Origin: an uncultured Clostridia bacterium
GTDB taxonomy: Bacteria > Bacillota > Clostridia > TANB77 > CAG-508
NCBI GenBank assembly: GCA_934155265.1
Contig: CAKPGU010000009.1
Location: 10,702 to 74,701, forward strand
Reading direction: 5' to 3'
DNA: 64,000 bases
This document shows positions 22,429 through 23,850 of this stretch, in pieces. Position 1 is the first letter of the stretch, and the number at the start of each line of letters is the position of its first letter. The translations under genes were made by a program, and so were the position numbers. The notes beneath the pieces were generated by a model that searched no databases, had not been told where the DNA came from, and saw only the letters and a program-made list of their open reading frames with translations.

Positions 22429-23496
22429 ATGAATAAAAAACAAAGCAAAAGAAAAATTAATTTGAAATCAGCAATACTATTGCTTTTACTATTAGCAATA
22501 CTATTAACAGCATCTACTTATGCATGGTTTACAGCCAACAGAACTGTAACAGTTGATGATATTGATGTAAATATCGCAGCACAAAATGGTTTGCAAATAT
22601 CAGCAAATGGTGTTGACTGGAAATCAATATTAAAATTAGAAGATTTAAAAGCAGGGTACACATCACCAAATGGAACTGCAGATACAAATCAATTACCAAC
22701 AACTATGGAACCAGTATCTACAGCAGGAAATGTAACAAATGGAAAGATGGAAATGTTCTATGGTTCAGTTGATCCAGTTGATGGTGAATATGCATTAACA
22801 GCAACAGAACAAACTGATACAAAAGGTGAAAATGGAAAATATGTTGCATTTGATATATTCTTAAAAGTAAACCAAGATGAAGATAATGTTATATTAGGTG
22901 AAAACTCACATGTTGTATTTAAAGATCAAACAACAGATAGAGGAATACAAAATGCAGCACGTGTTGCATTCTTACTAGAAGGTAATTCGGATGAAAATGC
23001 TGGACAAGATACATTTGTAGGACAAAATTCAGCTGTATCATTTGGTACAGATGCACAAGAAACAACATATATTTGGGAACCAAATTCTGATGTACATACA
23101 CAATCAGCTGTAACATATGGACAAGGTACATACAAAATGGGAGTAACAAGCCACCCAGAAGGATCTAAAATAACAATTACACAAACAGACTGTGCGGTTA
23201 TACCTGCTTATGGAATAAATAAAAAAATAGATACAGGTATAAAACTAATAAACTCATTCTATGGTAAAGACTTTGATAACGGAAATACAGATATAGATAG
23301 CTTTACAAAGGTAACACCAAGTTATTCTACAAAAGCTGCAATGACAGCACAAGAAAATGCTTTCTCATTAAAGAAAGGTGTTACAAAAATGAGAGTTTAT
23401 ATGTGGATTGAAGGACAAGATGTTGACTGTGAAAACTCAGCTTCTGGATCAGATGCAACATTCAAAGTTGAATTTAGATTACCAGAAGGACAATAA
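22429..23496 (+). CDS. secreted protein with SipW-cognate-like signal peptide (..ASTYAWFTANRT); paralog of 9967..11190
   Basis: Signal-anchor ILLLLLLAILLTASTYAWFTANRTV. C-terminal RVYMWIEGQDVDCEN. Preceded by a promoter carrying ATTACA repeats. Followed by the 35-bp repeat palindrome. Confidence 0.6.
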   Translation: MNKKQSKRKINLKSAILLLLLLAILLTASTYAWFTANRTVTVDDIDVNIAAQNGLQISANGVDWKSILKLEDLKAGYTSPNGTADTNQLPTTMEPVSTAGNVTNGKMEMFYGSVDPVDGEYALTATEQTDTKGENGKYVAFDIFLKVNQDEDNVILGENSHVVFKDQTTDRGIQNAARVAFLLEGNSDENAGQDTFVGQNSAVSFGTDAQETTYIWEPNSDVHTQSAVTYGQGTYKMGVTSHPEGSKITITQTDCAVIPAYGINKKIDTGIKLINSFYGKDFDNGNTDIDSFTKVTPSYSTKAAMTAQENAFSLKKGVTKMRVYMWIEGQDVDCENSASGSDATFKVEFRLPEGQ

Positions 23497-23850
23497 AAAT
23501 TTACCAGAGGGGACACTCATTAATGGTAAAAAAAGTTACCAATGGGGACACCCCTTAGTGGTGAAAAAAGTTACCAGTAGGGACACCTTTTAATGGTAAA
23601 AAGTATATTAAAAAGTTAATATAATTAATACATATTCGATTATATTTATTAATTAACTATTTTAAATACTACTTTTTTACCACTAAAGGGTGTCCCTACT
23701 GGTAACTTTTTTCACCATTAAGGGGTGTCCCTACTGGTAACTTTTTTTACCATTAAGGGGTGTCCCTACTGGTAACTTTTTTTACCACTAAGGGGTGTCC
23801 CTACTGGTAACTTTTTTTACCACTAAAGGGTGTCCCCAATGGTAAAAAAT
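23496..23850. repeat. REP-C large palindrome: 3 reverse units (23496-23605), AT-rich ~70-bp centre, 5 forward units (23674-23850)
   Basis: Forward units GGGGTGTCCCTACTGGTAACTTTTTTTACCA(T/C)TAA repeated 5 times at a 35-36-bp period. Left arm is the reverse complement. Confidence 0.85.

What the first reader, a model, noticed from the sequence alone, without database searches (positions are those of the whole stretch)
23496..23850. 355-bp perfect-ish palindrome made of 35-bp units, each carrying its own hairpin
Three reverse-orientation units and five forward units (GGGGTGTCCCTACTGGTAACTTTTTTTACCATTAA) flank an AT-rich 70-bp centre. Each unit contains an internal TGGTAA-N-TTACCA hairpin plus a GGGGTGTCCC box. 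A smaller 2+2 palindromic copy lies at 7318-7450 and a 5-unit forward array at 42843-43003. There are no unique spacers, so it is not a CRISPR array. Candidates include a cruciform-forming recombination or inversion hotspot, a MITE-like element, or a reiterated protein-binding array. Units are in frame with and extend three adjacent ORFs (..GTLINGKK.. tails).
Basis: seen in the sequence. Interest (0 to 1): 0.65.

Follow-up and report, generated by a model that had tools for sequence, protein, structure and literature searches.

The report
REP-like hairpin repeat arrays in Clostridia
The palindrome is a cluster of a 35-bp hairpin repeat scattered between genes of an uncultured low-GC gut Clostridia lineage, and related genomes tie it to a domesticated tyrosine transposase (RAYT), making it a Gram-positive counterpart of the REP/BIME/REPIN elements of E. 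coli and Pseudomonas rather than a new kind of element.

Summary
The window holds exactly 17 copies of a 35-bp unit in three intergenic arrays: 7314-7448 (2 reverse + 2 forward), 23498-23848 (3 reverse + 70-nt AT-rich centre + 5 forward) and 42833-43004 (5 forward).

The natural register is a stem-loop: stem TTTACCA/TGGTAAA around a loop carrying GGGGACAC.

Related gut metagenome genomes carry the same unit at dozens of gene 3' ends, almost always as reverse units followed by forward units. In those genomes a RAYT-type HUH/Y1 transposase with a C-terminal HTH sits in conserved TatD-RAYT-UDG synteny. It is flanked by inverted copies of that lineage's own unit variant, and in a more distant relative the stem is different but the G-rich loop is kept.

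The array at 23.5 kb differs between strains (3+5, 1+3, 1+2 units, with or without the centre).

It is therefore a REP/REPIN-like, "TIRYT/TIRtron"-type repeat family: a new member of a known kind. Mobilisation by the RAYT, and any terminator or mRNA-stabilising role, are inferred, not shown.

Side finding: the RAYT of this lineage carries a conserved +1 frameshift at a very rare CGG codon.

The parts
23498..23602 (-). Left arm of array 2. Three 35-bp units in reverse orientation (the top strand reads TTTACCA-nn-GGGGACAC-n5-TGGTAA plus an A-run linker).
23603..23672 (.). 70-nt AT-rich centre that is itself partly palindromic. It is a conserved module found between inverted units at four other loci in two related genomes.
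   Evidence: I9; alignment A1: window, L039, L131, L137, L146
23673..23848 (+). Right arm of array 2. Five forward units (TTTACCA-yTAA-GGGGTGTCCC-TAC-TGGTAA plus a C/T-run linker).
7314..7375 (-). Array 1, two reverse units. The first supplies the last 7 codons and the stop codon of the SipW-like gene.
7388..7448 (+). Array 1, two forward units. A short ~12-nt junction separates them from the reverse pair.
42833..43004 (+). Array 3, five forward units with A-run linkers. It lies between the 3' end of the RNase P RNA gene and the convergent rluD-like gene. Read on the minus strand, each hairpin is followed by a U-run.
22429..23496 (+). 355-aa gene for a secreted, SipW-substrate-like protein. 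Its stop codon lies immediately before array 2.
23927..25489 (+). 520-aa gene downstream of array 2. The intergenic distance to it varies between strains because the unit number varies.
6722..7339 (+). SipW-like signal peptidase gene (Peptidase_S24/S26) that ends inside array 1.
42958..43902 (-). rluD-like pseudouridine synthase gene. Its last 15 codons and stop codon are encoded by array 3.
42445..42799 (+). RNase P RNA gene (Rfam RF00010, 290 bits) ending about 35 nt upstream of array 3.

Best explanation
The 35-bp unit is a repetitive extragenic palindrome (REP-like element). It is a weak DNA/RNA stem-loop with stem TTTACCA/TGGTAAA and a loop carrying the G-rich box GGGGACAC. The arrays are clusters of these units, comparable to REPIN or BIME clusters.

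The family belongs to a RAYT (REP-associated tyrosine transposase, TnpA_REP) system of the HTH-bearing kind that has been called TIRYT/TIRtron, or subclass 2.1. The RAYT gene is not in this window. In related genomes it sits between tatD and a uracil-DNA glycosylase gene and is bracketed by inverted units.

Inferred mechanism:
1. The HUH/Y1 enzyme recognises the hairpin and its GGGGAC loop on single-stranded DNA.
2. It cuts and rejoins that DNA, seeding inverted doublets (reverse unit(s), spacer, forward unit(s)) just behind stop codons.
3. Once present, arrays grow and shrink by slippage or recombination between the 35-bp units, by nested insertion, or by hairpin-stimulated deletion. This would give the strain-to-strain differences seen.

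At the host level the arrays probably act as 3'-end hairpins (termination or mRNA protection). That step is inference only.
For: **Shown**
1. There are 17 units in 3 intergenic arrays, far above chance.
2. The same unit lies at about 60 arrays in related MAG and metagenome loci. In 18 of the 20 mixed-orientation arrays all reverse units precede the forward units. Some of these loci are duplicates of the same genomic site.
3. In L119, L147 and L172 the unit pairs bracket a gene that matches Pfam Y1_Tnp (3.4e-11). It matches NCBIfam REP-associated tyrosine transposase much better than IS200 (51-77 bits against 20-25). It also has a C-terminal winged HTH.
4. A 22-sequence alignment keeps the HUH histidines, YIHNNP and DYxYSS invariant. 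Its only PDB hit is 4ER8, E. coli TnpA_REP.
5. Homologs 50-56% identical keep the TatD-RAYT-UDG synteny. Each is flanked in the same orientation by its own unit variant: GGGGACGGAG in L156, L159 and L161. L175 (GGGGACACTC) is flanked the same way, but its contig is too short to show the synteny.
6. A 47%-identical homolog (L179) has a different stem, AAGACAAA/TTTGTCTT, around a GGGACGGGG loop. A 42%-identical homolog (L180) has perfect 47-nt inverted repeats with GGGGACGTG.
7. GGGGACAC fits the GGGGWSAS motif reported for TIRYT flanks (PMC3733652; PMC6006769).
8. The doublet with its 70-nt centre recurs at a non-orthologous locus in relatives.
9. The orthologous site of array 2 is polymorphic, with constant outer boundaries: 3+centre+5, 1+centre+3, or 1+2 units. 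A 79%-identical relative has no units at all and an ordinary terminator instead.
10. No target-site duplication is seen at array boundaries. This fits IS200/IS605-type chemistry.
Against: - No RAYT gene lies in the window. I could not show which RAYT allele the window's own genome carries.
- The RAYT of the lineage with the same unit variant is split by a frameshift. It could be inactive, in which case current array dynamics would be slippage only.
- NCBIfam scores stay below the equivalog cut-off (67-77 against 80 bits).
- The units lack the constant GTAG/CGTC tag of classical REPs.
- The single-unit hairpin is weak (-5 to -7 kcal/mol as DNA, z about -1 to -3.7).
- REPs near the RAYT could partly reflect the generally high density of units in that neighbourhood.
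- Whole-genome copy number was not measured.
Confidence: 0.82

Rival explanations
1. The arrays are first of all functional transcription terminators or mRNA 3'-end stabilisers kept by the host. The link to a transposase is historical or incidental.
For: - All three window arrays start at or within a few codons of a stop codon.
- 36 of 326 mechanically listed ORFs in the related loci end at a unit.
- Forward units of array 2, and the minus-strand reading of array 3, put a hairpin in front of a run of 6-7 U.
- A relative without units has a canonical terminator at the same place.
- No other terminator-like site lies between 23496 and 23927.
Against: - The consensus terminator scan reports none in the arrays.
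- Stems are short and AT-rich.
- The reverse units met first by the upstream mRNA are followed by A-runs, not U-runs.
- This reading does not explain why unit variants track RAYT lineages, or why the RAYT gene is bracketed by them.
- It is compatible with the main explanation as a secondary role.
Confidence: 0.3
2. The large palindrome is a cruciform-forming recombination or inversion hotspot with a regulatory role.
For: - The arms are 108 nt and 91% complementary. The predicted RNA fold is -203 kcal/mol with z = -22.
- Strains differ in unit number and in the presence of the centre.
Against: - The variants are deletions or expansions with fixed outer boundaries, not inversions.
- Nothing invertible, such as a promoter or a gene, lies between the arms. 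Promoter-like hits in the region are not above chance (8 found against 10.8 expected).
- No recombinase gene lies nearby.
- The same units also occur as one-orientation arrays (array 3).
Confidence: 0.07
3. Reiterated binding sites for a DNA-binding protein (iterons of an origin, a partition site or a nucleoid protein array), unrelated to transposition.
For: - The 35-bp period is regular.
- Each unit holds two near-palindromes (TGGTAA-N6-TTACCA and GGGGTGTCCCC) that could suit dimeric HTH proteins.
- The RAYT itself has an HTH domain.
Against: - There are dozens of sites at unrelated gene ends, and none lies next to rep or par genes.
- The window is chromosomal housekeeping DNA with PolA, RNase P RNA and 6S RNA.
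- A more distant lineage keeps the hairpin geometry but changes the stem sequence completely. This points to structure-specific recognition rather than duplex-sequence recognition.
Confidence: 0.06
4. A classical MITE derived from a DDE-type insertion sequence, or a degenerate CRISPR array.
For: The architecture is inverted-repeat-like and the repeats are regular, with a length typical of CRISPR repeats.
Against: - There is no target-site duplication at any boundary.
- No DDE transposase was found between unit pairs. The inserts are ordinary genes or the Y1 gene.
- There are no spacers and no cas genes among the flanking genes scanned.
- The viral contig scan was empty.
Confidence: 0.03

Closest known systems
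TIRYT/TIRtron elements (Di Nocera et al. 2013, PMC3733652), equated with TnpA_REP subclass 2.1 (Quentin et al. 2018, PMC6006769)
   Same: - A RAYT-like Y1/HUH protein with a C-terminal HTH extension.
- The gene is bracketed by inverted repeats sharing the motif GGGGWSAS (here GGGGACAC).
- The repeats also occur elsewhere in the genome as dimers and clusters.
   Different: - Here each repeat is a clear stem-loop with the motif in the loop. Quentin et al. reported no REP-like sequences next to subclass 2.1 genes.
- The family is amplified into head-to-tail 35-bp arrays of up to 5 units.
- The host is an uncultured low-GC Clostridia lineage.
- Phylogenetic placement in subclass 2.1 was not tested.
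REPIN-RAYT systems of Pseudomonas and Enterobacteria (Bertels & Rainey 2011, PMC3116915; Bertels et al. 2017, PMC5581495)
   Same: - Inverted doublets of a short palindrome separated by a spacer, forming a long hairpin.
- An extragenic, multi-copy family.
- A RAYT gene at a conserved chromosomal position, flanked by its own repeats.
- The repeat sequence co-varies with the RAYT lineage.
- Higher-order tandem clusters exist.
   Different: - The units lack the GTAG tag.
- The stems are AT-rich and the conserved G-rich part is in the loop.
- The RAYT has an extra HTH domain. It resembles the widely distributed group that Bertels et al. found only weakly associated with abundant repeats.
- Excision events were not observed here.
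E. coli REP/BIME and TnpA_REP (Ton-Hoang et al. 2012, PMC3333891; Messing et al. 2012, PMC3479197, PDB 4ER8)
   Same: - About 35-bp imperfect palindromes clustered behind genes.
- The only solved structure that the RAYT profile hits is 4ER8.
- The proposed host roles, mRNA 3'-end protection and termination, are the same.
   Different: - BIMEs alternate REP orientation (Y/Z). Here, blocks of same-orientation units are joined head to head.
- Sequence similarity of the enzyme to 4ER8 is remote (E = 2e-4 with a profile, nothing with a single sequence).
BOX elements of Streptococcus pneumoniae and STAR elements of Staphylococcus aureus (from my own knowledge, not checked here)
   Same: Modular intergenic repeats of low-GC Gram-positives with a variable number of tandem sub-units, or GC-rich boxes at regular spacing.
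   Different: No dedicated transposase is known for BOX or STAR. There is no sequence similarity, and here a RAYT association is documented.

Membership tests
REP/RAYT (REPtron) system | Short (20-40 bp) imperfect palindrome able to form a stem-loop | tested here: met
   The stem TTTACCA/TGGTAAA encloses the GGGGACAC box. DNA folds give -4.8 to -6.8 kcal/mol. Single units flanking the RAYT have the same form.
REP/RAYT (REPtron) system | Multi-copy, predominantly extragenic distribution | tested here: met
   There are 17 units in 3 intergenic sites of 64 kb. About 60 arrays lie in related loci, and at least 32 arrays lie on about 1.18 Mb of QWCV01 contigs, a lower bound. A whole-genome count is not available.
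REP/RAYT (REPtron) system | A Y1/HUH transposase gene bracketed by inverted copies of the same repeat | tested here: met
   Seen in L119/L147, L172, L156, L159, L161, L175 and L179. It was seen in relatives only. There is no RAYT in the window.
REP/RAYT (REPtron) system | RAYT sequence signature (HUH, YxHxNP, catalytic Tyr) and closer match to RAYT than to IS200 TnpA | tested here: met
   Invariant residues are H60, H62, Y120, I121, N124, P125, Y137, Y139 and S140. NF047646 scores 67-77 bits against 20-25 bits for NF033573. The only PDB hit is 4ER8.
REP/RAYT (REPtron) system | Score above NCBIfam equivalog cut-off for REP-associated tyrosine transposase (80 bits) | tested here: not met
   The best score is 76.8 bits, so this is a divergent relative and not an equivalog of the curated family.
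REP/RAYT (REPtron) system | Conserved GTAG (or CGTC) tetranucleotide tag at one end of the palindrome | tested here: not met
   Unit ends are TTTACCA / TGGTAAA. GTAG appears only inside some units (CCAGTAGGGACACC) and is not constant.
REP/RAYT (REPtron) system | RAYT binds and cleaves its REP on single-stranded DNA | not testable with these tools
   This needs biochemistry.
TIRYT/TIRtron = TnpA_REP subclass 2.1 | C-terminal helix-turn-helix extension on the Y1 domain | tested here: met
   HTH_24 matches at 1.2e-6 on the C-terminal part. Precomputed HTH_24, HTH_11 and HTH_23 hits occur on homologs.
TIRYT/TIRtron = TnpA_REP subclass 2.1 | Flanking inverted repeats carrying GGGGWSAS | tested here: met
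   GGGGACAC in the window, L119, L172 and L175 fits exactly. GGGGACGG in L156, L159 and L161 differs at one position. The motif is as given in PMC3733652 and PMC6006769.
TIRYT/TIRtron = TnpA_REP subclass 2.1 | Phylogenetic placement within subclass 2.1 | not tested
REPIN | Two REPs in inverted orientation forming a hairpin, as the predominant arrangement | tested here: met
   In 18 of the 20 mixed-orientation arrays all reverse units precede the forward units (some loci are duplicates of the same site). The whole element folds as one hairpin.
REPIN | The doublet with its spacer is copied as a unit to new sites | tested here: inconclusive
   The 70-nt centre is conserved at five loci (A1). These include a non-orthologous context. 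No direct excision or insertion event was observed.
BIME | REPs in regularly alternating orientation | tested here: not met
   Units form same-orientation head-to-tail blocks at 35-bp spacing.
CRISPR array | Repeats separated by unique spacers; cas genes nearby | tested here: not met
   Units abut with 4-7 nt A/T linkers. Flanking genes are housekeeping genes.
DDE-type MITE | Terminal inverted repeats plus target-site duplication, with a parent IS carrying the same ends | tested here: not met
   There are no direct duplications at array boundaries. No DDE transposase lies between unit pairs.
Intrinsic terminator | G+C-rich stem followed by a U-run | tested here: inconclusive
   The scan reports none inside the arrays. 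However, U-runs follow the hairpins of the forward units of array 2 and of array 3 read on the minus strand.

The most novel reading that the evidence does not exclude
An HTH-bearing RAYT of the TIRYT/subclass 2.1 kind, a class reported as not associated with REP-like hairpins, maintains a large, co-evolving population of hairpin repeats in gut Clostridia. The conserved GGGGAC loop, rather than a GTAG tag, is the recognition element. Production of the active enzyme is throttled by a conserved programmed +1 ribosomal frameshift at an almost unused CGG codon (GCY-CGG-A) placed just upstream of the catalytic tyrosine. The arrays would in addition have been co-opted as the terminators of the genes they follow.
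Probability: 0.25. Interest if true: 0.55.

Novelty: new member of a known kind. Interest (0 to 1): 0.35.

Why it matters
REP/REPIN-RAYT systems have been worked out almost entirely in Proteobacteria. The HTH-bearing RAYT class was reported without REP-like partners.

This lineage gives a clear Gram-positive example in which three things can be read directly from metagenome assemblies:
- repeat and transposase co-vary across lineages;
- the hairpin geometry is kept while the stem sequence changes;
- array size varies between strains.

Practical consequences:
- These arrays break short-read assemblies. Many contigs end in them, and one scaffold has an N-gap at the array.
- They add repeat-encoded tails (FT[S/I]GDTH*, GTLINGK...) to annotated proteins.
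- They could serve as strain markers for this gut taxon.

The finding does not open a new category of element.

Tried and rejected
- **Phage and plasmid records.** Megablast of 12 kb around the array found no match in either collection.
- **Viral contigs.** The 29-nt two-part pattern gave no match. The window is chromosomal.
- **tRNA scan.** None found.
- **First genome contigs pattern.** With 14 specified bases it was too loose. Only the CAKPDR01 and CAKPLT01 Clostridia MAGs had clustered copies.
- **Exact look-up of the window's PolA.** Not on record.
- **Rfam.**
  - At gathering thresholds it finds only RNase P RNA and 6S RNA.
  - At permissive E-values the array hits plant MITE-derived miRNA hairpin families, all below their thresholds. 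This only reflects a long AT-rich hairpin.
- **Segments between distant unit pairs.** The '-- ... ++' pairs 0.4-4 kb apart might have been cargo of a transposon. In L142, L077 and L141 the intervening genes are ordinary genes, so these are separate arrays.
- **Single-sequence phmmer of the repaired RAYT against PDB.** No hit. Only the profile reached 4ER8.
- **Promoter and terminator scans around array 2.** Not above shuffled expectation.
- **Megablast of the related loci against the window.** Nothing outside the repeats. None of them is the window's own genome region except L163, L164, L177 and L178.
- **Compensatory changes within the window's own units.** None found. The TGGTGA/TCACCA variant sits on mirror-image units of the two arms, which says the arms are copies of each other, not that the stem co-varies.
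Full report

Yes. Reading 23300-24050 shows two parts:
- three units on the top strand of the form TTTACCA-nn-GGGGACAC-n5-TGGTAA plus an A-run (23498-23602);
- a 70-nt AT-rich stretch (23603-23672);
- five units of the reverse complement, TTTACCA-yTAA-GGGGTGTCCC-TAC-TGGTAA plus a T-run (23673-23848).

The repeat finder gives 35-nt spacing in both blocks and inverted arms of 108 nt at 91% complementarity, 71 nt apart. Tandem Repeats Finder gives 3.1 and 4.9 copies of period 35, and a third 35-bp array at 42839-43003.

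The core GGTGTCCCnnnTGGTAA occurs 17 times with at most 2 mismatches. With up to 3 mismatches allowed the search gave 20 matches (3 of them weak, 3-mismatch hits outside the arrays) against 1.15 expected from shuffles. A profile built from the units finds exactly those 17 and nothing else in the window.

Independent assemblies of the same species reproduce array 2 (L163) and array 3 (L177, L178) base for base. These are therefore not assembly artefacts.

**2. Context**

The window is chromosomal DNA of a bacterium with about 28% G+C. It carries DNA polymerase I, prolidase, prepilin peptidase, two SipW-like signal peptidases, RNase P RNA and 6S RNA. There is no match to phage or plasmid records.

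All three arrays are intergenic and begin at a gene's 3' end:

| Array | Position relative to genes |
|---|---|
| 1 | Follows, and supplies the last 7 codons of, the SipW-like gene 6722-7339 |
| 2 | Starts right after the TAA of the 355-aa secreted-protein gene (22429-23496) and precedes the 520-aa gene |
| 3 | Lies between the end of the RNase P RNA gene and the convergent rluD-like gene, whose last 15 codons (…GTLINGKIFYH*) it encodes |

It is false for the 355-aa gene, where only a spurious overlapping 61-aa ORF reads the units.

**3. Relatives**

A loose pattern scan of species genomes gave mostly chance singletons. It did give clustered copies in two uncultured Clostridia MAGs, CAKPDR01 and CAKPLT01.

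A stricter 29-nt pattern found 37 metagenome loci, many from human gut, and none in viral contigs.

Scanning these loci gave about 60 arrays:
- Most are pairs of units 35 nt apart.
- In 18 of the 20 arrays with both orientations, all reverse units precede the forward units, as in the window. Some loci are duplicates of one site.
- Several contigs end inside an array, and one scaffold has an N-gap there. This is what a dispersed repeat does to short-read assemblies.

On about 1.18 Mb of QWCV01 contigs at least 32 arrays were retrieved. This is a lower bound, and it assumes those contigs come from one organism.

**4. The transposase**

Between one reverse pair and one forward pair (L119 2320-2371 and 3358-3409) lies a gene split into two ORFs.
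- The N-terminal ORF matches Pfam Y1_Tnp (3.4e-11). Its best NCBIfam match is "REP-associated tyrosine transposase" (1.8e-13). The match to IS200 TnpA is far weaker.
- The C-terminal ORF carries a winged HTH.

Removing one C (…AAA GCC [C]GGA ATA…) restores a 253-aa protein. This finds 303 homologs, mostly about 255 aa long and mostly on about 1-kb contigs.

An alignment of 22 of them keeps the following invariant:
- the HUH histidines;
- the RAYT hallmark YIHNNP;
- DYxYSS around the presumed catalytic tyrosine.

NCBIfam scores are 67-77 bits against a cut-off of 80, compared with 20-25 bits for IS200. The only solved structure hit by the profile is 4ER8, E. coli TnpA_REP bound to a REP.

**5. 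Repeat and enzyme go together**

Homologs 50-56% identical lie in the same AcpS-TatD-RAYT-UDG neighbourhood. This argues for vertical inheritance of a resident gene rather than a hopping IS.

Each is bracketed in the same polarity (reverse unit(s), gene, forward unit(s)) by that lineage's own version of the unit:

| Loci | Flanking unit |
|---|---|
| L156, L159, L161 | TTTACCA-t-GGGGACGGAG-tta-ATGGTAAA |
| L175 (contig too short to show synteny) | TTTACCAA-GGGGACACTC-ttaa-TGGTAAA |
| L172 (87% identical) | The window's own GGGGACACC variant |
| L179 (47% identical, different neighbourhood) | Stem replaced by AAGACAAA/TTTGTCTT; loop still GGGACGGGG |
| L180 (42% identical) | Perfect 47-nt inverted repeats with GGGGACGTG and an inner GTTTCA/TGAAAC hairpin |

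So the hairpin geometry and a G-rich GGGGAC loop are the conserved features. The stem sequence can be exchanged wholesale. This is what is expected for structure-specific recognition on single-stranded DNA by a HUH/Y1 enzyme. That step is an inference from the known IS200/IS605 and TnpA_REP mechanism.

**6. Dynamics**

The doublet with its 70-nt centre is not unique to this locus. The centre aligns with that of four other elements (L039, L131, L137, L146). At least L039/L131 lie behind a different gene.

At the orthologous site of array 2 the outer boundaries are fixed, but strains of the sister species differ:

| Locus | Structure at the site |
|---|---|
| Window, L163 | 3 reverse + centre + 5 forward |
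| L169 | 1 reverse + centre + 3 forward |
| L166-L168 | 1 reverse + 2 forward, no centre |
| L170 (79% identical relative) | No units; an ordinary hairpin-plus-T-run terminator |

The mirror-image position of a rare variant (TGGTGA on the left arm, TCACCA on the right) shows that the two arms are copies of each other.

These data show gain and loss of units. They cannot separate three possible causes: RAYT action, replication slippage, or palindrome-stimulated deletion.

**7. What it most likely does**

Shown:
- identity as a dispersed hairpin repeat family;
- physical and evolutionary linkage to a RAYT-type gene;
- array polymorphism.

Inferred:
- mobilisation by the RAYT on single-stranded DNA;
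- insertion just behind stop codons;
- later expansion.

A host-level role as a 3'-end hairpin is plausible. U-runs follow the hairpins of the forward units in array 2 and of array 3 read on the minus strand. There is no other terminator between the 355-aa gene and the next promoter-like site. The unit-free relative has a normal terminator there.

Against this, the single stems are weak, and the generic terminator scan does not call them.

**8. Comparison with what is known**

The closest description is the "TIRYT/TIRtron" of Di Nocera et al. (PMC3733652). These are RAYT-like genes flanked by inverted repeats sharing GGGGWSAS, sometimes amplified as dimers and clusters. Quentin et al. (PMC6006769) equate them with TnpA_REP subclass 2.1, defined by a C-terminal HTH, and report no REP-like sequences next to those genes.

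GGGGACAC fits GGGGWSAS exactly. Here the motif sits in the loop of an obvious hairpin.

The system behaves like the REPIN-RAYT pairs of Pseudomonas and E. coli (PMC3116915, PMC5581495, PMC3333891). It differs in four ways:
- it lacks the GTAG tag;
- it has AT-rich stems;
- it forms head-to-tail 35-bp blocks rather than the alternating orientation of BIMEs;
- it falls just below the NCBIfam equivalog cut-off.

I therefore file it as a new member of a known kind, not as a member of the classical GTAG-REP family. No paper naming this particular family turned up in the three literature searches.

**9. Side observations**

*RAYT frameshift.* The RAYT of the GGGGACACC lineage has the same one-base frameshift in two species (GCC-CGG-A in L119, GCT-CGG-A in L172).
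- The two species are separated by dS of about 0.49.
- The 125 downstream codons, which include the catalytic-tyrosine motif, are still open in both. Shuffled sequence stays open for about 8 codons on average.
- Those codons evolve at dN/dS 0.42.
- The truncated N-terminal ORF is on record from dozens of contigs.
- CGG is absent from 7,080 codons of the window's long genes.

This looks like a programmed +1 frameshift at a hungry codon, but it is untested.

*Second repeat family.* A second, more numerous dispersed repeat has the core GTACCSGGTMC inside AAAATGTACCCGGTCCAAAAT. It occurs 19 times at 10 intergenic sites, against 0.15 expected by chance. Copies come as inverted or direct pairs 30-50 nt apart.

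**10. Verdict**

The element is a REP/REPIN-like array of a TIRYT-type RAYT system in an uncultured gut Clostridia lineage. It is well explained in kind and of moderate interest. The interest lies mainly in it being a clear Gram-positive, HTH-RAYT example with visible co-evolution and strain-level dynamics.

Noticed in passing
window 2329-2391, 4871-4933, 11268-11310, 36320-36374, 39247-39291, 42354-42399, 52424-52466, 57244-57296, 60970-61013, 63779-63789: A second dispersed intergenic repeat family. Its core is GTACCSGGTMC inside AAAATGTACCCGGTCCAAAAT. It gives 19 matches against 0.15 expected, in pairs 30-50 nt apart that are either inverted or direct. Some inverted pairs, such as 42354-42399, look like a GC-rich hairpin flanked by A- and T-runs, i.e. 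a bidirectional terminator. It is more numerous in the window than the 35-bp unit.
   Followed up: partly
L119 about 2760-2790 (minus strand) and L172 about 1335-1350: The RAYT gene of the lineage with the window's unit variant has a conserved +1 frameshift at GCY-CGG-A, just upstream of the catalytic-tyrosine motif. The downstream 125 codons stay open in two species (dS 0.49, dN/dS 0.42). CGG is absent from 7,080 codons of the window's long genes. It is a candidate programmed +1 frameshift.
   Followed up: partly
window 42445-42799 (+) and 50154-50366 (+): RNase P RNA (class A, 290 bits) and 6S RNA (78 bits). The mechanical ORF 42484-42729 (minus strand, 81 aa) lies inside the RNase P RNA gene and is spurious.
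   Followed up: yes
window 25506-34226 (+): A 2,906-aa ORF with no Pfam match at E <= 0.01, directly downstream of the 520-aa gene that follows array 2. It is conserved in relatives (called as 2,906 aa in L163 and L165).
   Followed up: no
window 6722-7339, 34295-34909 and 22429-23496: Two SipW-like signal peptidase genes (Peptidase_S24/S26) and a 355-aa protein. One homolog of the 355-aa protein is named by a source as having a SipW-like signal peptide. Together they suggest a TasA/camelysin-like secreted fibre or matrix locus.
   Followed up: no
L119, L124, L132, L134, L141, L145, L147, L152 (ORF ends): Many unrelated proteins in the related genomes end in the same repeat-encoded tail, FT(S/I/N)(G/R)DTH*. 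Examples are TatD, AcpS and an AddB-like 1,070-aa protein. The units therefore repeatedly replace native stop codons and add a 6-7 residue tail to annotated proteins.
   Followed up: partly
L156 2047-2080, 2915-2981, 3863-3889, 5985-6034, compared with L119 2320-2371, 3358-3409, 4244-4330: Orthologous intergenic gaps (AcpS|TatD|RAYT|UDG) carry units in both lineages, although the unit sequence has diverged (GGGGACGGAG against GGGGACACCC; spacing 33 against 35 nt). This implies either concerted turnover in place or repeated insertion at the same spots.
   Followed up: no
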